A stretch of DNA of 43,023 bases. Source: a virus. Below the pieces are notes generated by a model. The model was not told the DNA's origin, ran no database searches, and saw nothing but the letters and a program-made list of their open reading frames with translations. Made by a program: the position numbers and the translations under genes. Of the stretch, positions 20,167 through 33,838 are shown one piece after another. The stretch is taken from UHGV virus genome UHGV-0853564; one strand, given 5' to 3'. Each line of letters opens with the position of its first letter. The first letter of the stretch is position 1.

Positions 20167-20241
20167 GATGAATCCTCCAGGTGCGTATTAAGTATGCAGT
20201 AACTGGAGGATACCACGGGTAGGATTTATCCTAATAACGGT

Positions 20242-20535
20242 TTATTTATGACGCCAGATGTATTGTCGTCTCTGCGGTTTCGTCGGAATATCATCGTATC
20301 CCAGCGATTTCCAGTAATTAAATAGCCGATTAGCGATTGCAGCGCGTTCCTTTGTCTTGAACTCACCGAGATTCACGGCCTTCCCGTTCTGAAACCCACA
20401 GGCGCGTACCGCTTTGCGCCTGGCCTGAATCTCAGGGTACAGCGCGTTACGGCGACGCTTGTGTATGCGCGTCTTCGCTCTCGGTGACAGCGGCACAAGG
20501 CCGCTTCGTTTCAAGATGTCAGTTGCAAGGGACAT
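20242..20535 (-). CDS. hypothetical basic protein (possible AP2-like DNA-binding motif)
   Basis: GKAVNLGEFKTKERAAIANRLF loosely resembles AP2-type domain; weak. Confidence 0.35.
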   Translation of the reverse strand: MSLATDILKRSGLVPLSPRAKTRIHKRRRNALYPEIQARRKAVRACGFQNGKAVNLGEFKTKERAAIANRLFNYWKSLGYDDIPTKPQRRQYIWRHK

Positions 20536-20762
20536 TATCTCTCCTGTTTACCAAGTCGCTTAGGTGAGCAGATAGCGCGTACCTCCGAATCGTTGGGCTT
20601 GTCACCCTGAAACAGGAAGTGCGCGTTCTCCGCAGCGCGTGCCGCTGACTGGCACGCCTCCATAGAATAAAACGTTTCTGATGCCACCAGGTGCATCTGG
20701 CCTGCGGACAGTACCCAGATAAATAGGATGCTGGTCATTTCTTTAACCCACATATTCTGCAC
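20535..20762 (-). CDS. hypothetical protein with signal-peptide-like N-terminus
   Basis: MTSILFIWVLSAGQMHLVAS; track start is GTG, true start uncertain. Confidence 0.4.
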   Translation of the reverse strand: MQNMWVKEMTSILFIWVLSAGQMHLVASETFYSMEACQSAARAAENAHFLFQGDKPNDSEVRAICSPKRLGKQER

Positions 20763-20766
20763 ATCA

Positions 20767-21075
20767 TCAAAGCACCTTTATTGTAAAAGCACCTTTATTG
20801 TAAAAGCACCATTCGTGCTCGCAGTCCCGAGTGTCTTCTTTACGGCAACCGGATTGCTCGGCGGCGCACTCTCCGTTGCGTAGAACTTTGTAAGGCTCAA
20901 TATTCCCCGTAGCCTTAACCAAGGCGACATGCAAATCCCTAAGCTGCGCCCGCGCATCACGTAACTGGTTTTTAAGTGACTGCACCTCATGCGCCAAGTC
21001 TTCGCACTGGTTGTTATTTACCTGCTGCCGTAGTTGGTCAATCAGGTACTCGAATACTTCGTTTTTGTTACTCAT
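20767..21075 (-). CDS. hypothetical protein (coiled-coil, Cys-rich C-terminus)
   Basis: ORF track; 3' end contains 17-bp tandem repeat. Confidence 0.45.
   Translation of the reverse strand: MSNKNEVFEYLIDQLRQQVNNNQCEDLAHEVQSLKNQLRDARAQLRDLHVALVKATGNIEPYKVLRNGECAAEQSGCRKEDTRDCEHEWCFYNKGAFTIKVL
20771..20810. repeat. 17-bp tandem repeat agcacctttattgtaaa x2.3
   Basis: Two exact copies plus a partial third at the 3' end of ORF 20767..21075. Confidence 0.8.
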
Positions 21076-21252
21076 CTTCTGTCTCTCCTCTCACTAGAAC
21101 TAATGGATAGGTACAATACTTGCGGTTGTTATCCCGTTTGAAATATAAAAATCGAGTGCATCACAAGCCCAATCTAGTCTGCACCATCCGCTCAATTTTT
21201 TATCCCCATCAATAATTATGTATTTTTCGTATCCCATATTGACACCTCTCGT

Positions 21253-21525
21253 TTATTCAACAGCGCCTGTTATCGCTATAAGGCCGGTGTTACCGCGGCG
21301 GCGATACTTACGAATCACCGTTTTAAGTTCGTCGTTGCTACTCTGATGCCCGAAAGTGATAGGCAACTCTTCTCCGCCCGACATCCCGAACTCGGTGTCT
21401 GTCGGTTTGTCCCTCCACCCCTGGATAAAACCGAAACGGTCACGGGTTATGTACCTGTAGTTGTTAGGTAGGGGCAACTCCAGCCCCTCAAAATCAACGG
21501 TAGCGGTGTAGCTGCTAAAATTCAT
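21253..21525 (-). CDS. hypothetical protein
   Basis: Track start is TTG at 21531; first ATG at 21525. Confidence 0.4.
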   Translation of the reverse strand: MNFSSYTATVDFEGLELPLPNNYRYITRDRFGFIQGWRDKPTDTEFGMSGGEELPITFGHQSSNDELKTVIRKYRRRGNTGLIAITGAVE

Positions 21526-21664
21526 AGTCAATTACCCCGAACTCATTGATGATTTGCGCCTTGTAGAAGTTGCCGTTTGACGCCAGGTGGTACGCCTGTG
21601 CCATAGACATCTCACGGTAAGTTGCGGTGCTGTTTTCGAATTCCATAACCATCAAAGTAACCAT
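21515..21664 (-). CDS. small hypothetical protein (49 aa)
   Basis: ATG at 21664 preceded by GAGGAG RBS and conserved leader; below track cutoff. Confidence 0.3.
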   Translation of the reverse strand: MVTLMVMEFENSTATYREMSMAQAYHLASNGNFYKAQIINEFGVIDYEF

Positions 21665-21691
21665 CTTCTGTCTCTCCTCTCGTTCGTGTAA

Positions 21692-21713
21692 ATGAATAGT
21701 AGCCTATTCTATC
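21692..21713 (-). promoter_or_regulatory. GAATAGT dyad element (atgaatagtagcctattctatc) upstream of leftward gene
   Basis: TACTATTCA about 27 nt upstream of ATG 21664 on minus strand, followed by conserved leader catcttctgtctctcctctc (also at 21074). Confidence 0.45.
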
Positions 21714-21764
21714 TTAGCGTGCAAGTAAATTTTATTGGTGTTTGTACTGTCACCACGGGACAGG

Positions 21765-21956
21765 TTACGAGGTCATCCTCTGCAACACATCCCATAAATC
21801 GGTCTCTGCCTCGCGTTTCCTACTCCCAGCGTCGTCCACGCTATAGTAATCCGCAGTTGCGTAGTCCGCGTGTGCCTCTGCAACTGCGATAATCGCATCA
21901 TATAATGATTGCGCTTGTTCTTTAGTAATCATTGTTGCGTCTCCTGCAATAGTCAC
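21765..21956 (-). CDS. hypothetical protein
   Basis: ORF track. Confidence 0.4.
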   Translation of the reverse strand: MTIAGDATMITKEQAQSLYDAIIAVAEAHADYATADYYSVDDAGSRKREAETDLWDVLQRMTS

Positions 21957-22066
21957 TTCGATTGTTGCGTTTGGTGAAAGTGTCGCTTTTTGACGACACT
22001 AATCTAAAGTTGTACGCTGCTGTGTAGCAGCGTAAGTCACTCAGTAAAATCCCAAACTATTGAACA

Positions 22067-22264
22067 TCACACTTCCGGCGGCTCTGGTAGCGGCATCCAG
22101 TGAGTTACATCTTCCCGGTCCACCGTAACCTCCCACGGCTCTATCCAGCTATCCCAATACCCATCACAATCTAACCACATCACCTCAACGTTATCCCCAT
22201 CTGAAACCAGCACATCTTCAAAATCACCCGGCATCCGCTCACTACACTTAATCCACTCGCTCAT
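22067..22264 (-). CDS. hypothetical acidic Trp-rich protein
   Basis: ORF track. Confidence 0.4.
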   Translation of the reverse strand: MSEWIKCSERMPGDFEDVLVSDGDNVEVMWLDCDGYWDSWIEPWEVTVDREDVTHWMPLPEPPEV

Positions 22265-22267
22265 ATC

Positions 22268-22411
22268 TCACCTCGTATTCATCGCATACTGCACACCAGC
22301 TTTCCACGCCCGCCACGCGAGACGCGTCCTAACGTTCAGGTACTCTTTCTTCGAACCCTTGTTAACAGGCAGACCCTCGACGACGGCCCAACGTTCGAAT
22401 GCTTCTCTCAT
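22268..22411 (-). CDS. small hypothetical protein (~47 aa)
   Basis: ATG overlapping upstream stop; coordinates approximate. Confidence 0.25.
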   Translation of the reverse strand: MREAFERWAVVEGLPVNKGSKKEYLNVRTRLAWRAWKAGVQYAMNTR

Positions 22412-22614
22412 AACTCGACCCCCAGAACCTCGCATTCGGAATTGCAGACGAACAAATACTCACGGCAATGGTTTATAACAAATCCGTACTCGCCACGAAT
22501 CTCTACGTCGAACTCATCACCAACAGAGACGCCAAAGTACGCAAGGCTAACGTCCTGGTATCCATTAGGGCATGTTTGTTCAACATCAGTTATACGAATT
22601 CTCATTAACGGCAA
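22408..22614 (-). CDS. hypothetical protein
   Basis: ORF track. Confidence 0.4.
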   Translation of the reverse strand: MPLMRIRITDVEQTCPNGYQDVSLAYFGVSVGDEFDVEIRGEYGFVINHCREYLFVCNSECEVLGVEL

Positions 22615-22790
22615 CCTCCCTCAGAGTCGTCGGCACTAGCATCATGATTCGATGCCGTTCTGGATTTAAATTCCGCGTTGAAACCTAACTTTGTTAAGAC
22701 GCAGTAATGGTCGAATGCTTCGCTTCTGCTTCTTGTTGAATAACTAAATCTTCCACCTACATATACGTCGTAAATTAATTCTTCCATCAC
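22605..22790 (-). CDS. hypothetical protein
   Basis: ORF track. Confidence 0.4.
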   Translation of the reverse strand: MMEELIYDVYVGGRFSYSTRSRSEAFDHYCVLTKLGFNAEFKSRTASNHDASADDSEGGCR

Positions 22791-22963
22791 TTCGCCCCTT
22801 TGAATTTAAAATTGTTGCCGATGAGTTCTATGTCTTTCGCATACAGGAAACCGTAGTGGATTCCGCTTTTTACCTTAACAACGTCATACATTTCTAAGTA
22901 CCATTCTACGAAGTAAAAATCCCTCGTCCCTTTAACTTTAACCAACTGACCCTTCTTAAACAT
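22787..22963 (-). CDS. hypothetical protein, first gene of leftward operon
   Basis: Track start GTG 22972; ATG 22963 with GAGG RBS preferred. Confidence 0.4.
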   Translation of the reverse strand: MFKKGQLVKVKGTRDFYFVEWYLEMYDVVKVKSGIHYGFLYAKDIELIGNNFKFKGAK

Positions 22964-22994
22964 AACCCTCACTCCTCTGTCTCGTTTCGATAAG

Positions 22995-23026
22995 TGAATA
23001 GTATCCTATTATGTTGGGGTGTGCAA
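22995..23026 (-). promoter_or_regulatory. promoter-like element for leftward operon (reverse copy of 2703..2734)
   Basis: Minus-strand reading ttgcacaccccaacataataggatactattca; second GAATAGT at 23029..23035. Confidence 0.5.
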
Positions 23027-23406
23027 GAGAATAGTTACGTTGCCGTTGTGATTCTTCAGGCAGGGTTGTGCCTTTATTCTTATTACTTGGTAACTAAAGG
23101 GCAGGCCTTAAGCCTGCCCAATAATCGTTACATTTTTACGGTTGCGAATCTACGGCACATTAAGAAAATCAGATACTTAAGAGATATGCCGCCGGTGAGA
23201 ATAGAGCTTGCCCAGGGCAACCGGAGATACTTAGGGAGGAAAGTTACGATAATTCTTATGTTCAGTAAACTTTCGCTTAACACTTTGCTTGCGCTGCGCG
23301 CAACTGCGTTTTAAGCGGTTTTACAAGGTGAACAGGAATCAAAGTAACTAAGATATAGAAGCACCTTAAACGAAGATTTCCATAATGTCAATAGGTGCGA
23401 TTATGT

Positions 23407-23435
23407 TTGATTTCCCATTATTCGCAATGTATACT
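23407..23435 (+). promoter_or_regulatory. sigma70-like promoter TTGATT-N17-TATACT for rightward early operon
   Basis: Consensus-like hexamers with 17-nt spacer about 30 nt upstream of first rightward ORF. Confidence 0.45.
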
Positions 23436-23467
23436 TGATCCCGTTAACTGATAATGAGGGTTTGAGA

Positions 23468-23620
23468 ATGGTTACTTTGACAGAAGAACAGTTGAAAGAG
23501 TTGCTGATAGAAGCGTGGTTTAACGGGCATGGCGAGAGCAGATACTGCCCCAATAAATACGGCGCAGCTACAGCGTTCGCACGGGAAACAATTAAGGAGA
23601 TTAAAGATGACACAGAATGA
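23468..23620 (+). CDS. small hypothetical protein
   Basis: ATG with GAGGG RBS; track start 23435. Confidence 0.4.
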   Translation: MVTLTEEQLKELLIEAWFNGHGESRYCPNKYGAATAFARETIKEIKDDTE

Positions 23621-23777
23621 AGTGGCCGAGCGTATCGGGGTTACTCGTCGAACGCTGAATAACTGGTTAAAGAGTGGGAAGTTCCCGGATTGCTGTATTC
23701 GCATTATGGGCCGCCGTCAGCCTGGCACATTTGACCCGGAGAAAGTGGAAGCGTGGATTAAGGAGAACGTGAAATGA
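23607..23777 (+). CDS. small HTH DNA-binding protein (AlpA/excisionase-like)
   Basis: MTQNEVAERIGVTRRTLNNWLKSGKFP is a typical HTH; AAGGAG RBS. Confidence 0.5.
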   Translation: MTQNEVAERIGVTRRTLNNWLKSGKFPDCCIRIMGRRQPGTFDPEKVEAWIKENVK

Positions 23778-24007
23778 CCGAGTTCCAGTCACGCGTATTT
23801 ACGGCAGTCGTTTCATTAACGCGTAAAAAAGGTTCGTGCAGCGTTATGGACTTGCGCCGTAGTTATTTTAGGTACTATAGTTCCGCCATTATTGAAGCGT
23901 CGTTACGTGTGCTGGTTAAATCTGGCGTCGTGAAAAATGTTGGCGGGAAATATAGTGCTGTTGCTGAAGTTCGCGGAATGACCGCTACTTTAGAAGACCT
24001 GGAATAA
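23774..24007 (+). CDS. hypothetical protein ending ...TLEDLE
   Basis: ORF track; ATGA overlap with upstream gene. Confidence 0.45.
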   Translation: MTEFQSRVFTAVVSLTRKKGSCSVMDLRRSYFRYYSSAIIEASLRVLVKSGVVKNVGGKYSAVAEVRGMTATLEDLE

Positions 24008-24064
24008 AAGAAAGCCCCGACGTTAGAGCGCCGAGGCCAAATTACTTGCTGAAGGAAATACAAC

Positions 24065-26305
24065 ATGTCCGATGTAATTTTATCCTACTCGTGGTCTCGT
24101 CGCAACGCGCGGGCGGAGAAAAAGGATATAAACGTCAGAACCACACACACGGCAACACTGGACGACCTGAAAGAGTTAATCCAGCCGCTCGATGTTGTGC
24201 GAGATGGGGTTAACCCGAAGACAGCGCCAGGCTATATTACTGCCGCGTGCGACTCTACGCACAGCACCGTAAAAGACCCGGAAACTGGAGACTTTAAGCA
24301 GGCGCGTAAAGGCTTCTTCTATCGCTGTGATGCGTCTGTAAGCAAATCGTCGCTGGCGTACCTGGATTTCGACAGCGCAACGCCGGAAGAGTACCAGGAA
24401 GCTGTGCGCCTGGTTAAGCGCAGCCGCCAGGCGATGTGCCTCTATACCACGGCATCTCATACCGAGGAGTCACCGCGCTTTCGCGTCGTCATGCCGCTGA
24501 CCCGCCCGGTTGAAGGCGGTGACATCATCCGTGTTCGTCATGGGTTGCTGGAACACTTCTTCAAAGGCATGGGCGCCGACCGCAGCGGGTTTACCCTGTC
24601 GCAGCCGATGTATCTGCCCCCGGTTGGCTCTACCGTTATCTGGTCGCGGCGCAACGACCTGATTGACCCGGACGAATTACTGGAAGGCATCCCCGCCGTT
24701 GACGTTAGCAGCGCATCGGATTACCAGATACCGGAAGAACTGCGCACCGCGTTTACTGATGCGTTCGAAGCACTGGCGTTCGAATACGGCGGCATCATGA
24801 CGCCGCGCGGCCTTAAGATGCCAGCTACGCCGGAACACGCAGAAAACTACAGCGACCCTACGCCGCGCCCGGACGACTTCCTGCTGTGCTTCCCGCGAGA
24901 GGGCTACGAAGCGCCGAACGTAACCATGATTCACGACACCGACATTACGGCAACCGAAGGTATGTCGCCGAAAGAGGTGTGGAAGTATGCGTGCGATGCG
25001 ACCGGGCTGCCGTTCAGTGAAGTCGCCGAGGCTATCGGATGGGGTGCGCGTGAATCTGTTTCATGCAGCCTCGACGACCTGGAAGATGACGAGGACTCAG
25101 AGGAGGACGAGTTACCGGAGCCGGTAAAGGCTGATTTCGTCGTAGAAGGGTACATGCCGTCGGATTGTATCTGGGATATCGTCGGGGAGTCCGGCACGTA
25201 CAAATCATTCTATACGCTGGGGATGATGTACCTTAGCGCCGCCGGATACCGGTTTGCGGGGGCAGATACTCAGCGTTGCCACCATTTCTATATCGACGGT
25301 GAGGGTGGCGCGGCCACACGTACACGTATTGATGCGCTCGCGGCTAAATACGGCGCGGAAGGTAAAGATTATGTACACGTCATCGATATGGGCGAAGTCG
25401 GCAAACTGAAAAGCCTGATTAAGCTAATGCGCGAAACTGCTGGCGGCGAGCCTATCGGCATGGTTGCATTCGACACCCTTAACCAGACGCTGGCCCTGAC
25501 GATTGATAAGTTCGACGAGAACAGTTCATCAACGGCAATCGGTATGGGTAAAGTTATCGCAATCATGAAAGAAGTACGCGACGCGACTAAAGCTGCGGTA
25601 GGCGTTGCCCACCATACGCCGAAGGGGGGAAAGAAAGCCCGCGGCAGCGGGGCGTTGTATGCAGGCGTTGATGTGGAACTGACAATTGAACGTGCAACTG
25701 ACCGTCAGATAAACGTATACCACTCTAAATTTAAGCACGGGCCTCAGCAGAAAACGGTTGGCATGGTTCTGGAGTCGGTACAGTTCCGCGAAGCACCACC
25801 GCCGAAAGAGTACCGTGCAGTTGAGTTCCTCGGTAGCACAGAGGAATACGGCACAATCGTAAACCTCGACCTACCGGAGCCGCACAAGGCGCTTGTGTTG
25901 ATGCCGTGGGGATTCGAGCCGTTCAAGACTGACGAGGAGAAAGAGCGGGAAGAAGGGCTGACAAAGGAAGGTAAAGAAAACGTAAGGAATGCTGTAAAAC
26001 GTGGGAAGGATGAAGGGCGTAAGGAATCAATACTCGCCGCGCTGGAAGACCTGCAACAGTCCGACGACACCGGACGAGGTTTTACCCAACGGCAGATAGT
26101 AGCGAACTCAGGCGACCACGCCATCACCAACCACCATCTTGAGAAGATGCTGAAAGACGGTGAGTTGATGCTTGGATGCGATGTTAACGGTGAAGTTATA
26201 CCTGGTACCTACCGGATACCAGAAAAGATGGGTGACAGATTAAGGCCGAAGACAATATACGAACCGAATGAAATGTTGACAGTGACAGAGGAAGATTTGG
26301 AGTAG
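24065..26305 (+). CDS. primase-helicase: N-terminal AEP primase-polymerase-like domain plus P-loop NTPase
   Basis: AEP-like motifs YLDFD, TASH, RFRVVMP; Walker A GESGTYKS; 746 aa. Confidence 0.65.
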   Translation: MSDVILSYSWSRRNARAEKKDINVRTTHTATLDDLKELIQPLDVVRDGVNPKTAPGYITAACDSTHSTVKDPETGDFKQARKGFFYRCDASVSKSSLAYLDFDSATPEEYQEAVRLVKRSRQAMCLYTTASHTEESPRFRVVMPLTRPVEGGDIIRVRHGLLEHFFKGMGADRSGFTLSQPMYLPPVGSTVIWSRRNDLIDPDELLEGIPAVDVSSASDYQIPEELRTAFTDAFEALAFEYGGIMTPRGLKMPATPEHAENYSDPTPRPDDFLLCFPREGYEAPNVTMIHDTDITATEGMSPKEVWKYACDATGLPFSEVAEAIGWGARESVSCSLDDLEDDEDSEEDELPEPVKADFVVEGYMPSDCIWDIVGESGTYKSFYTLGMMYLSAAGYRFAGADTQRCHHFYIDGEGGAATRTRIDALAAKYGAEGKDYVHVIDMGEVGKLKSLIKLMRETAGGEPIGMVAFDTLNQTLALTIDKFDENSSSTAIGMGKVIAIMKEVRDATKAAVGVAHHTPKGGKKARGSGALYAGVDVELTIERATDRQINVYHSKFKHGPQQKTVGMVLESVQFREAPPPKEYRAVEFLGSTEEYGTIVNLDLPEPHKALVLMPWGFEPFKTDEEKEREEGLTKEGKENVRNAVKRGKDEGRKESILAALEDLQQSDDTGRGFTQRQIVANSGDHAITNHHLEKMLKDGELMLGCDVNGEVIPGTYRIPEKMGDRLRPKTIYEPNEMLTVTEEDLE

Positions 26306-26316
26306 GTAAAAAAGAA

Positions 26317-26333
26317 AGGGGCGTTAAGCCCCT
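26317..26333. terminator. hairpin aggggc-gttaa-gcccct between convergent genes
   Basis: Overlaps the stop codon of the minus-strand XRE gene; U-rich tract follows on minus transcript. Confidence 0.45.
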
Positions 26334-26539
26334 TCACCGAACGCCAGCCACTTGGCGTCTACTTCCAGCACTTCCGCCAGTTTAAACAGCGTCGCCGGGC
26401 GGACGTCCTGAGTTACACCGAGCGCAAGCTGGTTAATCGCGCCCTGGGAAACGCCAGCCAGAACGGCCAGACGGCGCTGGGAGATGCCGAGTTCTTTACG
26501 GCGTTGTTCTACACGGATGCCTAGTTCAGATGGTTGCAT
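26324..26539 (-). CDS. XRE-family HTH transcriptional regulator (Cro/CI-like)
   Basis: LGISQRRLAVLAGVSQGAINQLALG is a canonical HTH; only minus-strand gene in the rightward module; AAGGAG RBS. Confidence 0.7.
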   Translation of the reverse strand: MQPSELGIRVEQRRKELGISQRRLAVLAGVSQGAINQLALGVTQDVRPATLFKLAEVLEVDAKWLAFGEGA

Positions 26540-26566
26540 ATCAATTACTCCTTAGTTAGTTGATAT

Positions 26567-26585
26567 GTGAATAGTACCATATTAA
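26567..26585 (-). promoter_or_regulatory. GAATAGT element upstream of XRE gene
   Basis: gtgaatagtaccatattaa; TACTATTCA about 29 nt upstream of ATG 26539 on minus strand; also readable as TTGATA-N17-TAATTA on plus. Confidence 0.45.
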
Positions 26586-26603
26586 TTATTTTAGAAAAGC
26601 CCA

Positions 26604-26632
26604 TTGACACGTGAATAGTTTGCTATTATAGT
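26604..26632 (+). promoter_or_regulatory. sigma70-like promoter TTGACA-N17-TATAGT with GAATAGT dyad in spacer
   Basis: Perfect -35, 17-nt spacer containing tgaatagtttgctatt; ~30 nt upstream of ATG 26665. Confidence 0.6.
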
Positions 26633-26664
26633 CAGCACATACCAAACGAGAGGAGAGAAACAAA

Positions 26665-26814
26665 ATGACCAATAACCGCAAAGCAAAAATTCTGTTAGGA
26701 CTTGATATTGCCTTTGGGACTAAAGAAACAGCGCGCTACCGGGTAAGCAACAACCGCGTTGGCTTCTTCGACAAGTCCACTGGCCAGTTAGTTAAAACCG
26801 TTAAATATAAATAA
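26665..26814 (+). CDS. small basic protein (49 aa), paralog of 28181..28339
   Basis: GAGAGGAGAG RBS; N-terminus MTNNRKAKILL and RVSNN motif shared with the second copy. Confidence 0.45.
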   Translation: MTNNRKAKILLGLDIAFGTKETARYRVSNNRVGFFDKSTGQLVKTVKYK

Positions 26815-26829
26815 ACAGGAGAAAGAAAA

Positions 26830-27339
26830 ATGTTAGAGAAATTCTTAGTATTACTGGAACGTTTCGTAGTTGCCCATGAACTGATTGCGGCGAACAGTGC
26901 GAAACGTCCTGCGCCCCAAACTGAGCGCGCAGGTGAAATGCTTGTAGACGTGTCGGTTACGGGAGAGGTACTTGAAGTCGACCCAGGCACTGGCGTCGGG
27001 AAAGAAATCCCGGTGGAAGGTGAAGACATCGTCGACACACAACCGGCAGAAGAAGAGAAGCAGAAACGCAATCCACGTAAAGCTAAAGTAGAGGAACCGA
27101 CTCCAGAGCCTGAAGAAGAGAAGGAAGAAGTCGATTACCAGTCTCTGCGCGACCAGATTCAGGCTATTGACGATGCAATTAACGAAGGTCCGAGCGATGC
27201 CGCGTGCGATGATTCCGATGAACTGCTGGAAGAGTTCACCGGTAAGAAGATGAAGATTGCCGCGATTAAAGACGAAGACTTGGCTGAATACCTGGAACGC
27301 CTGACGGCAATCAAGAACAAGTATTTCGAAGAAGAATAA
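26830..27339 (+). CDS. highly acidic early protein (candidate DNA mimic)
   Basis: 169 aa with long runs of E/D (EEEKQKRNPRKAKVEEPTPEPEEEKEEVDYQ, DDSDELLEEF); AGGAG RBS. Confidence 0.6.
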   Translation: MLEKFLVLLERFVVAHELIAANSAKRPAPQTERAGEMLVDVSVTGEVLEVDPGTGVGKEIPVEGEDIVDTQPAEEEKQKRNPRKAKVEEPTPEPEEEKEEVDYQSLRDQIQAIDDAINEGPSDAACDDSDELLEEFTGKKMKIAAIKDEDLAEYLERLTAIKNKYFEEE

Positions 27340-27346
27340 CTATCTG

Positions 27347-27362
27347 GCGGCCTTCGGGCCGC
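27347..27362 (+). terminator. stem-loop GCGGCC-UUCG-GGCCGC with conserved downstream leader
   Basis: Perfect stem with UUCG tetraloop; followed by tttaactgagggtcggaattATG, similar to 30763..30788. Confidence 0.4.
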
Positions 27363-27382
27363 TTTAACTGAGGGTCGGAATT

Positions 27383-27772
27383 ATGAAATACGAAGAAATG
27401 AGCGATTTTGAAATTAATTGTGCGGTGGCAGCCGCATTAGATTTAAATGAACATTTGTTCTTCCCGTCTGGCGTCGAATACCTTGATAGTGATACCGATG
27501 ATTCAGACATGGGGCCCATATGGCAAACAAGAATGCCGTTTGTTAAAGGTTTTAGACCGTATAATGGTAATTTATTTAACCCGTGCAACAACATAGATAT
27601 TGCGTGGCAAATTATTACTCAAAATCATATATCGATTGAATGCGTTACAGTTAACCGGCACACGTTTACGTACCGCGCATATCACTCTGCATCTTTCACC
27701 AAAAGTACGCACGAAAACCCCCTACGCGCCGCGATGATTGTCTTCCTTAAAATGCAGGAGGCAAAGAAATGA
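27383..27772 (+). CDS. hypothetical protein in AT-rich segment
   Basis: 129 aa; markedly AT-rich compared with neighbours. Confidence 0.5.
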   Translation: MKYEEMSDFEINCAVAAALDLNEHLFFPSGVEYLDSDTDDSDMGPIWQTRMPFVKGFRPYNGNLFNPCNNIDIAWQIITQNHISIECVTVNRHTFTYRAYHSASFTKSTHENPLRAAMIVFLKMQEAKK

Positions 27773-28041
27773 TTTACCAACTCTACCGCGCCGTAGACAG
27801 GCGAGATAACACAGAGGCGCTATGGCTGTTGCGTGCACCGTCAGGTGCGCACCAGATGGAAGAGATGGCGTATTTAGGTAAAGTACCGCGGCCTAAAGAT
27901 ATAGGCCGTCACGTGTCGCAGATTAAGCGCACGACTTTTGCCAAACCTGACTTTTATGTCTTCGAGTCGATGTATGGATGGGCCTTACATTGCGACCATA
28001 AGACACGGCATTTAATCGACCAGTGGGAGAACAGGGTATGA
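27769..28041 (+). CDS. hypothetical protein
   Basis: ORF track; ATGA overlaps both sides. Confidence 0.45.
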   Translation: MIYQLYRAVDRRDNTEALWLLRAPSGAHQMEEMAYLGKVPRPKDIGRHVSQIKRTTFAKPDFYVFESMYGWALHCDHKTRHLIDQWENRV

Positions 28042-28184
28042 TTTACTGGGCGATATTTACTTACACTAACGCCACGGCTACAGAGCACAGCCGATACTTG
28101 GACGTAGAGGATGCATACGCAGCATACGATAATCTTGATTTTGATACTTTTGACGATGCTTGGGTGGAGAGGGTAGAAGAATGA
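28038..28184 (+). CDS. small acidic hypothetical protein (48 aa)
   Basis: ATG 28038 overlapping upstream stop; below track cutoff. Confidence 0.3.
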   Translation: MIYWAIFTYTNATATEHSRYLDVEDAYAAYDNLDFDTFDDAWVERVEE

Positions 28185-28339
28185 CGAACCGTAAAGCGCG
28201 TTTTCTATTTGTTAAACGTAACCAGCCTTTTCGAGTAAGCAACTCGACTTGGCTGATCATCTTCAACCGTAGCGGCGACACGTGCGCCTATAAACGCAAA
28301 ACACGTAAAGTTAAATGGGGCGGGAGTTTAAGAGCATGA
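28181..28339 (+). CDS. small basic protein (52 aa), paralog of 26665..26814
   Basis: MTNRKARFLFV...RVSNS; stop overlaps start of nuclease gene. Confidence 0.4.
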   Translation: MTNRKARFLFVKRNQPFRVSNSTWLIIFNRSGDTCAYKRKTRKVKWGGSLRA

Positions 28340-29784
28340 AACTAAAAGAACGCGGCGGCAATAATGATGTACACGCTTTACTGTCGCCGTCTGGTGCTAA
28401 AAAGTGGCTTACATGCAGTGCATCACTGGCCTGCGAGAAAGATATTCCTAACACGTCAGGTAAAGCCGCCGTATTAGGCACGGCTATGCACACGATAGCG
28501 GAGATGCACCTTAACCAGTATATCAAAGGCACTGCGTTGCCGTTAGAGCGTGAGGTCGGCGCTTACGTGCTGGACGAGGGTAAAGGCCAGATTAAGGCGC
28601 TAAACAGTCCGATGAAAGGCGCGGTACTGATTACGGCTGACATGATTGAGCAGGTGCGCAAGTACACCGACTACTGCAAAGAGATTATCGATGTAGCGAC
28701 TTACACCAAACTGGAAATGCGTGTCAATCTTACCGAGGTATTGCATCCTGGGTATATGTTTCGTGTTGCTGGTGAGCAGGGTGATGGCAACGCCGGGGTT
28801 TTTAAAACTGTGGAGACATTCGGAACAGCCGACTTAGTGGCGGTTATAGAAGGCTTTACGGGTGAAAGTAACTCAGCGATGCTCATTATCGGCGACCTGA
28901 AAACTGGGCGGCATCGTGTCGAAGCGAAAGAAAACAAACAGCTTATGCTTTACGCGCTCGGTGTTTATCGCCGACTCAAGAGGCGTTATAACATCACAGT
29001 AGTGCGCCTGGTTATCTTCCAGCCGTATGCTGGCGGAGCGTCTGAGTGGGACATCTCAGTTGAAGGTCTGGAACTGTTCGCCAAGTTCGCACAGAAACGT
29101 GCACTGTTGGCACTCGATGCGTATTTCCGTGGCAAGAAGAACCTGAAAGCGTCGGACTTCAAACCGTCGGTAGATGGTTGTCAGTGGTGTCGGTTCTCTG
29201 AACAGTGCGCCGCGCGTACAAAGACGGTTAACGCTGTGTTGGCGGAAGAACTGGAGGACAATACAGATGTATATCGTACAGCCGTAGAACGTGTGGCTAA
29301 GTTCTGCAACGACGCGGACTATATGAGCGTTTGGGAGGATGTTCAGCCGAGTGATATTCTTAAGTTGCTACCTGACGACACAGATTTACCTAAGAAGCCA
29401 GTGAGAGATGACGACTTTGCGCTGGAACTGACACCGGAGCAACTCGTAGCTGAGTATGAGAAGTTGCCGCTGTTGCGCCAGCACATCGACAAGGTCGAGA
29501 AAGCGATGGCTGCCGCGTTGCATTCCGGTAAGAAAGTGCCGGGGTACAAGCTGGTTGAAGGTCGTCCGGGTAATCGTGCGTGGAAGGACGCCGAGGCGGT
29601 ATACGAGAAATATGGTTACAAGCTGACTAAAGAAGTGCTCATGACGCCAACTGAAGCGGTTAAAGTAATACCGGAAGAAGAACTGAAAGACTTTATTACC
29701 CGTAAGCAGGGCGCACCATGTGTCGCAACGGCGGACGACAAACGTCCTGAATGGAATCAGGTAACAGAGGAGGATTTAGAATGA
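28336..29784 (+). CDS. PD-(D/E)XK nuclease with Cys cluster (Cas4/RecB-like fold)
   Basis: N-terminal LLSPSGAKKWLTCSAS, GDLKTGR motif, C-terminal CQWCRFSEQC Cys cluster; GGGAG RBS before ATG 28336 (track start 28315). Confidence 0.6.
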   Translation: MKLKERGGNNDVHALLSPSGAKKWLTCSASLACEKDIPNTSGKAAVLGTAMHTIAEMHLNQYIKGTALPLEREVGAYVLDEGKGQIKALNSPMKGAVLITADMIEQVRKYTDYCKEIIDVATYTKLEMRVNLTEVLHPGYMFRVAGEQGDGNAGVFKTVETFGTADLVAVIEGFTGESNSAMLIIGDLKTGRHRVEAKENKQLMLYALGVYRRLKRRYNITVVRLVIFQPYAGGASEWDISVEGLELFAKFAQKRALLALDAYFRGKKNLKASDFKPSVDGCQWCRFSEQCAARTKTVNAVLAEELEDNTDVYRTAVERVAKFCNDADYMSVWEDVQPSDILKLLPDDTDLPKKPVRDDDFALELTPEQLVAEYEKLPLLRQHIDKVEKAMAAALHSGKKVPGYKLVEGRPGNRAWKDAEAVYEKYGYKLTKEVLMTPTEAVKVIPEEELKDFITRKQGAPCVATADDKRPEWNQVTEEDLE

Positions 29785-30017
29785 TTCGTAGGATGTTCAG
29801 GGTGCTTGGCGGACTTGTAGCGTTTTTAAGCTACCACTTTATGATGTTGCCGGTTTATTCTCTGCTTTTTCCATTAATAGCCTATCTTGCGATTAAGCAT
29901 AAAACCGTAGAACTGGACGAGTTAATGGAGGTTAAGGAGATGAAGTTTGTTCAGAATTTGGAGTGGCCTTTCGAATACGTATTGATAGTTGAGAAAATAA
30001 CTGGCTGGAAGGGTTGA
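29781..30017 (+). CDS. small membrane protein
   Basis: GAGGAGGA RBS; hydrophobic segments LGGLVAFLSYHFMMLPVYSLLFPLIAYLAI. Confidence 0.45.
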   Translation: MIRRMFRVLGGLVAFLSYHFMMLPVYSLLFPLIAYLAIKHKTVELDELMEVKEMKFVQNLEWPFEYVLIVEKITGWKG

Positions 30018-30042
30018 CACCTGAATAGTTAGCTATTATATT
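30014..30042 (+). promoter_or_regulatory. sigma70-like promoter TTGACA-N17-TATATT with GAATAGT dyad in spacer
   Basis: Same architecture as 26604..26632; upstream of SSB-like gene; palindrome AATACGTATT at ~29965. Confidence 0.55.
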
Positions 30043-30096
30043 TCTAATCACTGGCCGGGCAGATTCCCGGAGTAAACTGAAAAGCGAGAAATTAAG

Positions 30097-30726
30097 ATGG
30101 GTATTAAACTGAATCTGCGTAAAGTAAACACTGCTTGGGTTAACGTATTCGAACGTGCTGCCGACTCTGAGGACAAGAAAACCGGTAAACTTATTAAGGG
30201 CAAATATCAGGTTACGGTTCTTATGCAGCCCGACCACCCTCAAATCGACGCGCTTTATGATACCGCGCTGGAAGTTGTAACAGAGGCAATCGGGGCGGCT
30301 GCTGCCGAGAAATGGATGAAGGCCAACTACGGCGTAGACCACCACGCGGACAAATGCTGCGTCCGTGACCTGGCAATGCGCGATAATCCGATTGAGGATT
30401 TTGAAGAGGGTCTGTATTTCCGCGCTACTAACAACCGCCAACCGGTGATTATGACATCTGCTAAAGGTGAAAAACAAACCGAGCCTGATTTCAACATCGA
30501 CGGGCAGGAAGTAGAAGGCGAGCAGGTATATAGCGGGTGTGTGGCTAACGTATCTGTAGAGTTGTGGTGGCACAAAGAATGGAAAAACCTGTGCGCTACC
30601 ATCCTCGGCATCAAGTATGCGGGCGAAGGTAAACGCTTCGGAGGCTCCAGTGTAGTAGCGAGCACCGACGACCTGGAAGACGACGAAGAAGATGAAGCAC
30701 CGCGCCGCGAACGTCGCCGCCGCTAA
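30097..30726 (+). CDS. ssDNA-binding protein-like (phage SSB family) with acidic C-terminal tail
   Basis: N-terminal LRKVNTAWVNVFE pattern typical of a phage SSB family; C-terminal TDDLEDDEEDE acidic tail. Confidence 0.55.
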   Translation: MGIKLNLRKVNTAWVNVFERAADSEDKKTGKLIKGKYQVTVLMQPDHPQIDALYDTALEVVTEAIGAAAAEKWMKANYGVDHHADKCCVRDLAMRDNPIEDFEEGLYFRATNNRQPVIMTSAKGEKQTEPDFNIDGQEVEGEQVYSGCVANVSVELWWHKEWKNLCATILGIKYAGEGKRFGGSSVVASTDDLEDDEEDEAPRRERRRR

Positions 30727-30745
30727 TATCTGAATCAATTTAACT

Positions 30746-30767
30746 AAGGCCCTTCATTGGGCCTTTT
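30746..30767 (+). terminator. rho-independent terminator AGGCCC-N6-GGGCCT + T5
   Basis: Hairpin followed by TTTTT; downstream of SSB-like gene. Confidence 0.6.
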
Positions 30768-30785
30768 TACTAAGGGTCGAAAATA

Positions 30786-33059
30786 ATGAGTTACCTGTTC
30801 TTAGACTTTGAAACATTCTCCGAAGCCGATTTAAAGAAAGTCGGTTCCTACGCTTACGCCGAACATCCAACTACAGAAGTGCTTATCTGTACCTATGCTT
30901 TTGACGACGAGCCTGTGCAGGTATGGGATTGCACGGACGGCAGCGACATGCCAGGGGATTTGCACCGCGCACTGCGCCGCCTGGTTAAGCCAAACAGCCG
31001 CATCAAGATGGTGTGGCACAACGGTGGACTTTTCGATAGGCTCATCATGAAGCACTGCTGGGGTTTCGATATCCCCGTAAGCAACACCATTGATACGATG
31101 ATTTGGGCGTTTCGTCACGCGCTGCCGGGTTCACTTGATGCACTGTGTGAAGTGCTGGGCGTATCCGCGGACAACGCGAAAGATAAACGCGGTAAGGCGC
31201 TGATTCAGCGTTTCTCTAAACCGACGCCGAAGAACTACAAAATTCGCCGCTACACTGCTGAAACTCACCCTGACGAATGGGCGCTGTTCATCAAATACGC
31301 CGTGAGCGACATCACTGCGATGCGTGAAGTCTTCCATAAACTGCCGCGTTGGGGTAACTCCGAGTTCGAAGACCGTGTACTGGAACTGGACCAGTTAATC
31401 AACGACAGAGGCTTCTTTGTTGACACGGCTCTTGCTGAGGCGGCGGTAGCGGCAGTTGAACGCCACAAGCAAGAGCTAAAAAACGAGGCCCGCGCGAAAT
31501 TCGGGGGGAAACTAACGGGCAAAGATTTCCTGCCAATACTTCGGGAGCTGGCACCGGCCTACAATATTTATAATGCGCAGAAAGCAACGCTCGAAGGTTT
31601 GCTAGAGGACGATGACCTGCCTGATGATGCGCGTACAATCATTGAGATGCGCCTCGGCGCGGCCTCCACGGCGTCGACAAAATACAAACCGCTCCTGCTA
31701 GGACGGTCCAAAGACGGACGCCGCCGCGGTTGCATCCAGTACGGTGGGGCAAAGCGCACTTTACGATTTGCGGGTAAAGGGTTCCAGCCGCAGAACCTGT
31801 CGCGCGGGTACTACCATGACGACCCAACTAATGAGGAAAAGAAACTTGTACGTCAGCCGTGGGAGTCCGACGAAGACTGGAACCGCAGGCTTAACCCGCT
31901 ATCATTTGGTATCAATTTGCTTTTAAAGGGTCGGGCGCATCGCCGTTTTGATATATCTAAACTAACGGCCTCAACTGTCCGCAGTTGCATCATCCCGGAA
32001 AAAGGCAATAAGTTGCTCGTTGCCGACTACTCAAACGTGGAAGGGCGTGGGTTAGCCTGGACGGCGGGGGAGGCGTCTGCCCTTGAGACGTTCCGCGCGG
32101 GGATTGATATTTATTGCGCCACTGCGGGCAAGATGTTTGGTATGGACCCTATAGAACTGAAAGCCACCCGTAAAGACCTACGACAGGTCGGGAAATGTTG
32201 CGAGCTCGGCCTCGGCTACGAGGGGGGTGTAGGGGCCTTCATGACTATGGCTAAAACTTACGGGCTGGACCTCTTTAAAATGACGGAGACAATGCGGGGG
32301 ACATTCCCTGACCATATATGGGCCGCCACTGCCCGAGGCTATGAATGGGCGCGGATCCAGGAGGCTAAGCGGCCTCCAAAACCTGGTAAAAAGGATGAAC
32401 GGGCCTCTTACGTGCTGCCTAAGGAAGTGTGGCGTACCTGTGATGCTATCAAGCGCATGTGGCGGGAGGCCCATCCGGAAACAGTGAAATTCTGGAACGA
32501 CCTTAAGGATTCAGTGATTGCCGCAATCAGAAATCCTGGGCGAGAGTTTTGGGCGGGGGCCAGGGTCCGCCTCAACGGCGACAGAGCTATTCGCATCTGG
32601 CGTACTAAAGAGAAAGACAGACAAGGTAACTTTGTGCCAGGTTGGTGGTTGTGCGTGGAATTGCCGTCCGGGCGCATCATGTCCTACCCTGGTATAGGTT
32701 TAAGCGTCACTAAAGAGACCGACGAGGACGGGCGCGTAACAACTAACGTTCGCATTAAATACCAGGGCGAAAATCAGACTACCCGCCAGTGGACAACTTT
32801 GTACACCCACGGCGGGAAATTGTGTGAAAACATTATCCAGGCGTTGTGTCGTGATTTACTGGTTAACGGACTCCTGACGGTCGAGGCAGCAGGCTACCCA
32901 ATTGTACTTCACGTACATGACGAATGTGTCGCCGAAACGCCAGACACACCGGAGTACACGGTTAAAGAGATGGGTGATCTGCTATGCTCATTACCTGAAT
33001 GGGCTAAAGGGTTCCCGTTAACATGGGCTGGGGAAGAGGTGTACCGTTATGCCAAGTAA
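30786..33059 (+). CDS. DNA polymerase, family A (Pol I-like) with 3'-5' exonuclease domain
   Basis: Exo motif LDFETFS; polymerase motifs ADYSNVEGR (motif A-like), RQVGKCCELGLGYEGG (motif B-like), LHVHDECV (motif C-like). Confidence 0.8.
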   Translation: MSYLFLDFETFSEADLKKVGSYAYAEHPTTEVLICTYAFDDEPVQVWDCTDGSDMPGDLHRALRRLVKPNSRIKMVWHNGGLFDRLIMKHCWGFDIPVSNTIDTMIWAFRHALPGSLDALCEVLGVSADNAKDKRGKALIQRFSKPTPKNYKIRRYTAETHPDEWALFIKYAVSDITAMREVFHKLPRWGNSEFEDRVLELDQLINDRGFFVDTALAEAAVAAVERHKQELKNEARAKFGGKLTGKDFLPILRELAPAYNIYNAQKATLEGLLEDDDLPDDARTIIEMRLGAASTASTKYKPLLLGRSKDGRRRGCIQYGGAKRTLRFAGKGFQPQNLSRGYYHDDPTNEEKKLVRQPWESDEDWNRRLNPLSFGINLLLKGRAHRRFDISKLTASTVRSCIIPEKGNKLLVADYSNVEGRGLAWTAGEASALETFRAGIDIYCATAGKMFGMDPIELKATRKDLRQVGKCCELGLGYEGGVGAFMTMAKTYGLDLFKMTETMRGTFPDHIWAATARGYEWARIQEAKRPPKPGKKDERASYVLPKEVWRTCDAIKRMWREAHPETVKFWNDLKDSVIAAIRNPGREFWAGARVRLNGDRAIRIWRTKEKDRQGNFVPGWWLCVELPSGRIMSYPGIGLSVTKETDEDGRVTTNVRIKYQGENQTTRQWTTLYTHGGKLCENIIQALCRDLLVNGLLTVEAAGYPIVLHVHDECVAETPDTPEYTVKEMGDLLCSLPEWAKGFPLTWAGEEVYRYAK

Positions 33060-33180: not shown

Positions 33181-33261
33181 AAATTTACTGGTTCTACGAA
33201 GAAGACTGCCGAATCTGTCCGCGCTGCGGTATTGAGCATACAAAACGGGAGGGGTGCATAG

Positions 33262-33579: not shown

Positions 33580-33580
33580 A

Positions 33581-33835: not shown

Positions 33836-33838
33836 TAC

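What the first reader, a model, noticed from the sequence alone, without database searches (positions are those of the whole stretch)
26324..26539. Lone XRE-type regulator between two dyad-containing promoters
This is the only minus-strand gene within the rightward module. Its own upstream region and the neighbouring rightward promoter (26604..26632) both carry the GAATAGT dyad, making it the obvious candidate to bind the element genome-wide, including at the two moron promoters. No integrase or lysogeny module was found, so it is not evidence of a temperate lifestyle.
Basis: inference. Interest (0 to 1): 0.55.

Follow-up and report, generated by a model that had tools for sequence, protein, structure and literature searches.

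The report
Cro-like repressor with genome-wide operators
A small 434-Cro-like DNA-binding protein of a virulent E. coli phage (Kagunavirus) sits between two promoters that carry the same 14-16 bp inverted repeat found at nearly every promoter of the phage. It is therefore most likely the phage's general transcription repressor: a sensible, largely expected arrangement that has not been tested experimentally.

Summary
26324..26539(-) is a 71-aa HTH_3/XRE protein with its own RBS and terminator, and it is the only leftward gene in the replication module of a Kagunavirus-like genome. Its closest solved relative is phage 434 Cro.

The repeated element is not GAATAGT but the dyad (T/G)AATAG-N4-CTATT(A/C).

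The dyad sits in three different positions relative to sigma70 promoter hexamers, so it is a separate protein-binding site and not part of the promoter itself:
- In the spacer of three TTGACA-17-TATAGT promoters.
- Over the -10 of five TTGCAC-17-TACTAT-type promoters, including the XRE gene's own promoter and both moron promoters.
- Over the -35 of two late promoters.

Comparative data favour the XRE protein over the phage's second HTH protein (HTH_17) as the binder:
- The dyad has 434-operator geometry.
- The XRE recognition helix and the dyad half-sites are both invariant across about 39 Kagunavirus loci.
- Lineages without HTH_17 keep an XRE gene and lineage-specific dyads.

Binding itself is untested. 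GenBank already annotates the gene as repressor or Cro, and one paper lists the motif as predicted promoters. No lysogeny genes were found. I rate it a new member of a known kind, of modest interest.

The parts
26324..26539 (-). XRE/HTH_3 gene, 71 aa, 434-Cro-like single-domain repressor candidate. Recognition helix SQGAINQ.
   Evidence: ORF. Pfam HTH_3 E=2.3e-12. PDB 434 Cro E=5.4e-7. AF2 model with 5 helices; Foldseek 2cro TM 0.73/0.79.
26548..26553 (-). Ribosome-binding site AAGGAG, 8 nt upstream of the ATG.
   Evidence: Sequence. Invariant in all but 1 of 37 distinct Kagunavirus switch regions.
26315..26335 (-). Intrinsic terminator of the XRE transcript (GGGGC-loop-GCCCC followed by a T-run). 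The stop codon lies in the loop.
   Evidence: sequence.
26570..26583 (.). O2: one-mismatch dyad AATAGTACCATATT over the -10 (TACTAT on the minus strand, 26571..26576) of the XRE gene's own leftward promoter.
   Evidence: The mismatch is invariant in 37 distinct Kagunavirus sequences. In Jerseyvirus the same promoter is a full TTGCAC-17-TACTAT.
26604..26632 (+). P_R, a class-1 promoter TTGACA-17-TATAGT. O1 (26614..26627, AATAGTTTGCTATT) lies in its spacer. It drives 26665.. onward into the replication genes.
   Evidence: Orthologous promoter and dyad are aligned across five lineages.
30014..30042 (+). Class-1 promoter TTGACA-17-TATATT with an exact dyad at 30024..30037. It lies upstream of the ssDNA-binding protein and DNA polymerase genes.
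33518..33546 (+). Class-1 promoter TTGACA-17-TATAGT with an exact dyad at 33528..33541.
2703..2732 (+). Class-2 promoter TTGCAC-17-TACTAT with an exact dyad at 2719..2732 over the -10. It drives the moron at 2760..4282 (Imm-like protein plus phosphoesterase).
   Evidence: Schulenburg annotation.
11659..11688 (+). Class-2 promoter TTGCGC-17-TACTAT with an exact dyad at 11675..11688. It drives the 74-aa moron ORF 11714..11938, which has its own terminator.
21695..21724 (-). Class-2 promoter TTGCAC-17-TACTAT with an exact dyad at 21695..21708. It drives the leftward small genes, then the lysis and packaging genes.
   Evidence: The orthologous Schulenburg site 39117 has genes in this direction only.
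22997..23026 (-). Class-2 promoter TTGCAC-17-TACTAT with an exact dyad at 22997..23010. It drives the leftward small genes 22972..22067.
11584..11597 (.). One-mismatch dyad centred on the -35 (11587..11592) of the minus-strand late promoter TTGACT-17-TAAGCT (extended TG). It abuts the everted palindrome ACTATTCGAATAGT (11592..11605).
   Evidence: Identical in Jerseyvirus L002.
18851..18864 (.). One-mismatch dyad centred on the -35 (18854..18859) of the minus-strand promoter TTGACT-17-TATATT, upstream of the small genes and terminase genes.
   Evidence: Conserved in L001, L002 and L004.
13497..13510 (.). One-mismatch dyad-like site lying just after a terminator. The head-morphogenesis start codon is at its centre. 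Its function is unclear.
   Evidence: Same site in Schulenburg and Golestan.
23607..23777 (+). Second small DNA-binding protein (HTH_17, excisionase-like, 56 aa). It is the rival candidate and not part of the proposed system.

Best explanation
The window is a Kagunavirus-like (Guernseyvirinae) virulent siphophage that depends on host sigma70 RNA polymerase. 26324..26539(-) encodes a 71-aa single-domain XRE protein of the phage 434 Cro type.

Inferred steps of the mechanism:
1. The protein binds as a dimer to the dyad (T/G)AATAG-N4-CTATT(A/C).
2. The dyad lies in the spacer, over the -10 or over the -35 of the phage promoters, so binding should occlude RNA polymerase and the protein should act as a repressor.
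3. Exact dyads sit at the three strong replication-module promoters and at four TTGCAC-17-TACTAT promoters. These four comprise two morons, the leftward small-gene cluster, and the promoter that reads toward the lysis and packaging genes.
4. Conserved one-mismatch dyads sit at the protein's own promoter (O2) and at two late promoters.
5. The most likely logic is graded negative feedback. As the protein accumulates it first turns down the early/middle and moron promoters. It limits its own synthesis and the late promoters only at higher occupancy. This is the job Cro ('Tof') does in lambdoid lytic growth, here extended to the whole genome and without a CI partner.

What is shown: the gene, its fold class, the dyads, their enrichment and positions, and their conservation. 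What is inferred: the binding, the sign of regulation and the timing.
For: Protein:
- HTH_3 E=2.3e-12.
- 434 Cro is the best PDB sequence hit, E=5.4e-7, aligned over residues 6-68.
- The AF2 model is a five-helix bundle whose top hits include 434 Cro at 40% identity, TM 0.73/0.79.

Operator geometry: 14 bp with conserved outer 5 bp and a variable central 4 bp. From established knowledge, this is the layout of 434 operators, ACAA-N6-TTGT.

Positive control for the logic: fetched phages whose homologue carries the 434-type helix (KQQSIQ) have ACAA-N6-TTGT dyads upstream of the gene.

Independence from promoter elements: the same dyad occurs in three registers relative to the -35 and -10.

Autoregulatory layout: O1 and O2 lie 44 bp apart in the gene's own divergent control region. 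Half-sites are invariant and N4 is variable in 37 distinct sequences, and the O2 mismatch is itself invariant.

Abundance: 174 exact dyads in 734 kb of Kagunavirus loci.

XRE versus HTH_17:
- The XRE recognition helix is identical in 38 of 39 Kagunavirus loci; the single G-to-S variant has the same dyad.
- It is also identical in database homologues down to 78% identity.
- The HTH_17 helix varies (VTRRTLNNW, VTRQTINNW, VS[TP]MTLNRW) with no change in the dyads.
- Cornellvirus SP-031 (whole genome) and L059 have no detectable HTH_17, yet both keep the XRE gene next to the orthologous promoter with a dyad in its spacer.
- L059 has a distinct helix (TQGGIGH) and a distinct half-site, TAATAC, at three promoters, plus an AATAC-type site in its own promoter.
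Against: - No binding data exist. No functional study of this protein was found in the searchable literature.
- Kagunavirus and Jerseyvirus use the same core half-site AATAG although their XRE helices differ at 4 of 7 positions (SQGAINQ versus SQSLITH) and the proteins are only 51% identical. HTH_17 is 87% identical between the two genera. Taken alone, that pattern would fit HTH_17 better.
- In Cornellvirus the dyads are degenerate, and their right arm coincides with the -10 hexamer, so part of the symmetry there could be promoter sequence.
- If every promoter is repressible, it is unclear how late expression escapes. The graded-affinity answer is inference.
- Kagunavirus K1B4 RNA-seq classes the probable orthologue (_004) as 'middle', not early. 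That assignment rests on gene order only.
Confidence: 0.62

Rival explanations
1. The dyad is bound by the other phage HTH protein (HTH_17, 23607..23777), an early product. The XRE protein regulates something else or only its own region.
For: - HTH_17 is present and 75-100% identical in exactly the two genera that share the strict TAATAG-N4-CTATTA dyad. It is undetectable in Cornellvirus and L059, where the dyad differs.
- Its operon starts beside the dyad at 22997.
- By gene order, the 'early HTH' of phage K1B4 is probably this protein.
Against: - By established knowledge, excisionase-type HTH_17 proteins are monomeric winged helices that usually bind direct repeats, not 6-N4-6 inverted repeats.
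- Its putative recognition helix varies within Kagunavirus while the dyads do not.
- Lineages lacking it still have promoter dyads in the same place.
Confidence: 0.12
2. The dyad is not a phage-repressor operator. It is either an intrinsic feature of this phage family's sigma70 promoters or the site of a host protein. The XRE protein controls at most its own promoter pair.
For: - PHIRE picked the motif up as 'conserved promoter sequences' in phage Golestan.
- The right arm overlaps the -10 in two of the three promoter classes.
- In Cornellvirus the right arm is the -10 itself.
Against: - The dyad occupies three different registers relative to the -35 and -10.
- Its left arm has no role in sigma70 recognition.
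- Half-sites are invariant while the 4 central bases and the bases next to the -35 vary and even shift by 1 bp.
- I could not match it, from memory, to an E. coli regulator consensus. This was not tested with a database.
Confidence: 0.1
3. The XRE protein does bind the dyads, but its main role is immunity or silencing rather than lytic timing. It would hold the genome in a repressed episomal carrier state, or exclude superinfecting relatives, in the manner of P1 C1, L5 gp71 or phiC31 c with their many dispersed sites.
For: - Essentially every recognisable promoter carries the site.
- The gene sits where cI sits, divergent from the replication operon, with its own promoter and terminator.
- A complete Kagunavirus-like genome is deposited as a 44,086-bp circular 'plasmid' of a clinical E. 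coli isolate.
Against: - There is no C-terminal oligomerisation or peptidase domain (71 aa).
- No partition, integrase or anti-repressor genes were found.
- There are no prophage copies in 5,426 complete E. coli genomes.
- The subfamily is described as strictly lytic with clear plaques (PMC13216507, PMC7203180).
- The single plasmid record may be culture contamination.
Confidence: 0.12

Closest known systems
Phage 434 Cro (and the N-terminal domain of 434 cI repressor)
   Same: - Same length (71 aa).
- Same five-helix XRE fold; about 40% identity in the structural alignment, and best PDB sequence hit.
- The invariant Gln at the start of helix 3 is retained.
- 14-bp dyad operators with conserved outer bases and a variable centre.
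- Operators overlap divergent promoters next to the gene.
   Different: - Different half-site: AATAG, not ACAA.
- No cI partner and no OR1-OR3 triplet; instead two operators 44 bp apart.
- The gene is transcribed away from the replication operon (the cI position) and not as its first gene.
- About 8-11 sites are dispersed over the whole genome of a virulent phage.
Lambda Cro 'turn-off' (Tof) function in lytic growth
   Same: The proposed role is the same: a small early or middle repressor that turns down early promoters during lytic development, with negative feedback.
   Different: - Lambda Cro has a different fold and acts only at OL and OR.
- Here the sites also cover moron promoters, the lysis/packaging-direction promoter and, imperfectly, late promoters.
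- The function is inferred, not shown.
Dispersed-operator repressors of temperate phages (P1 C1; mycobacteriophage L5 gp71 'stoperators'; phiC31 c with conserved inverted repeats)
   Same: One phage repressor with many sites scattered over the genome at or near promoters (my knowledge of the literature; not re-read here).
   Different: - Those phages are temperate and the repressors maintain lysogeny.
- Their protein families and site architectures differ.
- No lysogeny apparatus is present here.
Controller (C) proteins of restriction-modification systems (C.AhdI, C.BclI)
   Same: - Small XRE dimers that bind dyads in their own promoter, with strong and weak sites giving concentration-dependent feedback.
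- They appear among the structural matches.
   Different: - C proteins activate and then repress a single operon.
- No R-M genes are present here.
- The similarity is one of fold class only.

Membership tests
XRE / HTH_3 (Pfam PF01381) DNA-binding domain | Significant match to the family profile above the curated cut-off. | tested here: met
   E=2.3e-12, 47.2 bits against a cut-off of 23. HTH_19 and HTH_31 also score above their cut-offs.
XRE / HTH_3 (Pfam PF01381) DNA-binding domain | Five-helix lambda-repressor-like fold. | tested here: met
   AF2 model with pLDDT 79 and helices at 5-17, 21-28, 32-39, 48-57 and 62-66. Foldseek hits include 434 Cro, SinR, P22 c2 and HipB, with TM about 0.7-0.8.
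434 Cro-type single-domain phage repressor | Single domain of about 70 aa with no C-terminal oligomerisation or peptidase domain, homologous to 434 Cro. | tested here: met
   71 aa. The phmmer hit to 1zug/2cro/3cro has E=5.4e-7 over residues 6-68.
434 Cro-type single-domain phage repressor | Dimer binding to about 14-bp inverted-repeat operators that overlap promoters. | not testable with these tools
   Suitable dyads exist at the promoters, but binding and stoichiometry need experiment.
434 Cro-type single-domain phage repressor | Part of a cI/cro bistable switch with a tripartite operator. | tested here: not met
   There is no cI-like gene. Only two sites (O1, O2) lie in the control region. 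The other HTH protein in the window is HTH_17.
CI/LexA-type lysogeny repressor | N-terminal HTH plus a C-terminal S24 peptidase or dimerisation domain, with an accompanying integrase or maintenance module. | tested here: not met
   The protein ends at residue 71. No integrase, recombinase or partition genes were found in the window or in annotated relatives. No prophage copies were found in 5,426 E. coli genomes.
Kagunavirus / Guernseyvirinae conserved 'transcriptional repressor/Cro' gene | Orthology and synteny with the gene annotated in deposited genomes. | tested here: met
   117 phage records are 90-100% identical, 115 of them at 95% or more. The position between helicase-primase and the replication operon is the same.

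The most novel reading that the evidence does not exclude
A phage subfamily regarded as strictly virulent, and used for therapy and biocontrol, carries a complete one-repressor, many-operator network that touches every promoter. The XRE protein could therefore silence the whole genome. That would allow a transient repressed (carrier or pseudolysogenic) episomal state, or homoimmunity against superinfecting relatives, without any integrase. The circular 44-kb 'plasmid' pC16EC0033-2 in a blood isolate would be one such case.
Probability: 0.1. Interest if true: 0.7.

Novelty: new member of a known kind. Interest (0 to 1): 0.35.

Why it matters
If the inference is right, Kagunavirus and Jerseyvirus phages, which are widely isolated for therapy and food biocontrol, run their whole transcription programme through one small repressor and a 16-bp operator placed at 8-11 host-type promoters. 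This has three practical consequences.

- It gives a simple, testable model for temporal control in a group with no regulatory data.
- It gives a handle for engineering: an orthogonal repressor and promoter set, plus lineage-specific operator variants such as TAATAC in L059.
- It bears on safety arguments. Annotation pipelines flag 'repressor' genes as lysogeny markers, and here the gene is most likely a lytic-cycle regulator.

It does not change any general principle. Cro-type repressors with dyad operators are textbook.

Tried and rejected
1. Class-2 direction. I first read the four sites with the shared tail TTGGGGTGYGCAAG as rightward promoters with weak -35 elements. I rejected this for three reasons. 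The conserved GTGCAA is the reverse complement of a -35 TTGCAC placed exactly 17 bp from TACTAT. The orthologous Schulenburg site 39117 has genes only in that direction. TTGCAC is the -35 of the orthologous P_R in Cornellvirus.

2. K1B4 transcriptomics. I first took the 'early HTH' gene K1B4_008 to be this protein. Gene order indicates that _008 is HTH_17 and that _004 ('specific DNA binding', middle class) is the XRE gene. The supplement held only host annotation, so this could not be verified.

3. Recognition-helix versus half-site covariation across genera was inconclusive. Kagunavirus and Jerseyvirus share AATAG with different helices. L059 and Cornellvirus differ in both helix and site.

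4. De novo 16-mer clustering in Cornellvirus SP-031 returned only terminators and low-complexity coding repeats.

5. My first dyad scan used the wrong gap (N5) and found nothing.

6. Bidirectional-promoter symmetry of the Warman type was considered for the overlapping TATAAT/TATATT hexamers. The register does not fit, but this is my own reasoning and was not tested.

7. Resemblance to E. coli ARG boxes or marboxes was considered from memory. It does not fit and was not tested against a database.

8. Literature searches for functional work on this regulator found only genome announcements.

Full report
**What the window is.** Megablast of 25000..29000 and 20000..43023 against deposited phages finds several hundred Guernseyvirinae. 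The best are E. coli Kagunavirus phages (SZH-1, hz69, ST20, AMO_3701M) at about 88-91% identity over about 65-79% of the query. The window is therefore a Kagunavirus-like siphophage genome, permuted and inverted relative to phage Schulenburg, whose full annotation I used as a map. The subfamily is described as strictly lytic, with no lysogeny genes (PMC7203180; PMC13216507).

**The gene.**
- 26324..26539(-) is an ATG-initiated 71-aa ORF.
- Its RBS is AAGGAG at 26548..26553.
- A strong intrinsic terminator lies on its own strand at 26335..26315, and the stop codon sits in the hairpin loop. The gene is thus a monocistronic unit, convergent with the helicase-primase gene (24065..26305).
- It matches Pfam HTH_3 (E=2.3e-12), HTH_19 and HTH_31, all above their cut-offs. 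It also matches PHROG repressor and regulator families.
- Its best solved relative by sequence is phage 434 Cro (E=5.4e-7, residues 6-68), followed by the 434 repressor and P22 c2.
- An AlphaFold2 model (pLDDT 79) is a five-helix bundle. Foldseek returns 434 Cro (40% identity, TM 0.73/0.79), HipB, SinR, P22 c2 and R-M controller proteins.
- GenBank records already name it 'transcriptional repressor', 'transcriptional regulator', 'Cro' or 'DicA'.

**The repeated element.**
- GAATAGT occurs 12 times against 4.4 expected, but context shows the real unit is the dyad (T/G)AATAG-N4-CTATT(A/C).
- AATAG-N4-CTATT occurs 7 times exactly: 2719, 11675, 21695, 22997, 26614, 30024 and 33528.
- It occurs 4 times with one mismatch: 11584, 13497, 18851 and 26570. 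About 0.99 hits are expected.
- It is the commonest 5+5 dyad in the window, in two other Kagunavirus genomes and in a Jerseyvirus. The runners-up are terminator stems.
- Five GAATAGT hits are not dyads: 10843, 23029, 40758 and the everted pair 11592/11599.
- The same seven sites were listed by PHIRE as 'predicted conserved promoters' in phage Golestan, two of them 'before ORF48', which is its DicA-like repressor. The motif has therefore been seen before, but not interpreted as an operator.

**Three promoter contexts.**

| Class | Promoter form | Dyad position | Sites | What it drives |
|---|---|---|---|---|
| 1 | TTGACA-17-TATAGT/TATATT | in the spacer | 26604, 30014, 33518 (+) | replication genes |
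| 2 | TTGCAC-17-TACTAT | over the -10 | 2703 (+), 11659 (+), 21724 (-), 23026 (-); 26570 for the XRE gene | morons, leftward small genes, the lysis/packaging direction, XRE itself |
| 3 | TTGACT-17-TAAGCT (with TG) and TTGACT-17-TATATT | one-mismatch dyad over the -35 | -35 at 11587..11592 and 18854..18859 (-) | scaffold/capsid side; small genes and terminase side |

- Class 1: 3 hits against 0.14 expected. These are the three best sigma70 matches, 11 of 12 positions, in 21000..34500.
- Class 2: 4 hits against 0.15 expected. The conserved tail GGGGTGYGCAAG that puzzled me is the reverse complement of the -35 plus spacer.
  - 2703 drives the Imm-like/phosphoesterase moron at 2760..4282.
  - 11659 drives a 74-aa moron ORF at 11714..11938, which has its own terminator.
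  - 23026 drives the leftward small genes.
  - 21724 drives leftward small genes and then the lysis and packaging genes.
  - The XRE gene's own promoter has the same -10 (TACTAT) under the one-mismatch dyad O2. Its -35 is degenerate in Kagunavirus but is a full TTGCAC in Jerseyvirus.
- Class 3.
- One and the same dyad sits in three registers relative to the RNA polymerase contacts. It is therefore an independent element, that is, a protein-binding site.

**Conservation.**
- Across 37 distinct Kagunavirus switch regions, the half-sites of O1 and O2 never vary.
- The central N4 and the bases next to the -35 do vary, including a 1-bp indel.
- The O2 mismatch (AATAT) is itself invariant.
- In 734 kb of Kagunavirus loci there are 174 exact dyads. 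The flanking position is G or T in Kagunavirus and always T in Jerseyvirus.

**Who binds it?** The window encodes two small HTH proteins. The second is a 56-aa HTH_17 (excisionase-like) protein at 23607..23777. Several lines favour XRE.
1. Geometry. A 14-bp inverted repeat with conserved outer bases is what 434-type dimers bind (established knowledge). HTH_17 proteins typically bind as monomers to direct repeats.
2. Location. Two dyads, 44 bp apart, lie in the XRE gene's own divergent control region.
3. Positive control. Homologues carrying the 434 helix (KQQSIQ) have ACAA-N6-TTGT dyads upstream.
4. Helix invariance.
   - The XRE recognition helix is identical in 38 of 39 Kagunavirus loci, and the single G-to-S variant has the same dyad.
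   - It is also identical in homologues down to 78% identity.
   - The HTH_17 helix varies in the same set without any change in the dyads.
5. Lineages without HTH_17.
   - Cornellvirus SP-031 (whole genome), L059 and phiEap-2 keep the XRE gene beside the orthologous promoter with a dyad in its spacer.
   - HTH_17 is undetectable in SP-031 and L059.
   - L059 has a different helix (TQGGIGH) and a different half-site (TAATAC) at three promoters, plus an AATAC-type site in its own promoter.

Against XRE: Kagunavirus and Jerseyvirus share AATAG although their helices differ at 4 of 7 positions and the proteins are 51% identical, while HTH_17 is 87% identical. So covariation is suggestive but not clean.

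**Mechanism I commit to.** This is inferred. I put 0.62 on the model as a whole and about 0.7 on the narrower claim that XRE binds the dyad.
1. Host RNA polymerase fires the strong class-1 and class-2 promoters.
2. The XRE protein accumulates from its weaker promoter and occupies the exact dyads.
3. This turns down the replication, moron and leftward promoters.
4. O2 and the late-promoter sites, each one mismatch off, respond only at higher occupancy. This limits XRE synthesis and spares late expression.

This is the Cro 'turn-off' role, extended genome-wide.

The only transcriptome of a Kagunavirus (K1B4) is too coarse to test this. By gene order its 'early HTH' (_008) is HTH_17, while the XRE orthologue (_004) is 'middle'. 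That mapping is my inference.

**Lifestyle.**
- There is no integrase, partition or peptidase-domain repressor in the window or in annotated relatives.
- A 4-kb probe finds no prophage in 5,426 complete E. coli genomes.
- One complete Kagunavirus-like genome is deposited as a circular 44,086-bp 'plasmid' of a blood isolate. It has the same XRE gene and the same O1 and O2. This may be contamination or a carrier culture. It keeps a low-probability 'silencing or immunity' reading alive.

**Verdict.** The gene and motif are already annotated or listed in public records. What is added here:
- the operator definition;
- the three promoter geometries;
- the direction of the class-2 promoters;
- the comparative argument for XRE.

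I rate it a new member of a known kind, with interest 0.35.

Noticed in passing
window 26344..26375 and 26576..26607; L092 (NZ_AP025214.2) 4038212..4038789: Two adjacent 32-nt spacers of a type I-E CRISPR array in E. coli 2017.09.02CC match the window 100%. One lies inside the XRE coding sequence. The other spans the O2 right arm to the -35 of P_R. A third spacer of the same array matches two other Kagunavirus loci. This is natural immunity aimed at exactly this control region, and adjacent spacers suggest primed acquisition.
   Followed up: partly
L091 (CP088689.1, 'plasmid pC16EC0033-2', 44,086 bp circular): A complete Kagunavirus-like genome is deposited as a non-mobilizable plasmid of a human blood E. 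coli isolate. It is 86.5% identical to the window over 63% of an 8-kb probe. It carries the same XRE gene (same recognition helix; 3 residues differ elsewhere) and the same O1/O2 dyads. It could be a carrier state or culture contamination.
   Followed up: partly
window 11592..11605: A perfect everted palindrome ACTATTCGAATAGT (two half-sites tail-to-tail) abuts the -35 of the late promoter TTGACT-17-TAAGCT. The 28-bp block GAATAAACTATTCGAATAGTTGACTTTT is identical in Jerseyvirus L002. The standard dyad model does not explain it.
   Followed up: partly
window 13497..13510: A one-mismatch dyad-like site TATAG-TATG-CTATT lies immediately after the portal-gene terminator. The ATG of the head-morphogenesis gene is at its centre. 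It is conserved in Schulenburg and listed among the PHIRE sites of Golestan. It could be a roadblock or translational site, or chance.
   Followed up: no
window 11659..11965 and 2703..4282; L001 5636..6200; L004 3109 and 5066: Moron slots are embedded in the late operons on the opposite strand, each with a class-2 promoter and a terminator. Their cargo varies between relatives: a 74-aa unknown ORF here, a sliding-clamp-like gene in Schulenburg, and two promoter copies in L004.
   Followed up: partly
window 23607..23777: A second small DNA-binding protein (HTH_17, excisionase-like) lies upstream of helicase-primase. It is 87% identical in Jerseyvirus and undetectable in Cornellvirus and L059. 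By gene order it is probably the 'early HTH' gene of the K1B4 transcriptome. Its function is unknown.
   Followed up: partly
L006 11098..13749; L059 2507..5145; L090 5995..8648: In Cornellvirus SP-031, L059 and phiEap-2 the helicase-primase gene follows the XRE gene on the same strand. This is an inversion relative to Kagunavirus and Jerseyvirus, where the two genes converge.
   Followed up: no
window 26665..26814: The first ORF after P_R is 49 aa and matches PHROG 1380 (unknown function). It is present in the window and Schulenburg but absent in L004 and L007-L009, where P_R leads directly into the 169-aa gene homologue.
   Followed up: no
window 23099..23119 and 24013..24038 (minus strand): Strong terminator-like hairpins on the minus strand sit inside the rightward replication module. 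They may stop antisense transcription coming from the XRE side, or they may act in both directions.
   Followed up: no
L003, L005, L053, L060, L067, L082 (upstream of the XRE homologue): Unrelated phage contigs whose homologue carries a 434-type recognition helix have two or three ACAA-N6-TTGT operators upstream, i.e. 434-like immunity regions. They were useful as a positive control.
   Followed up: partly
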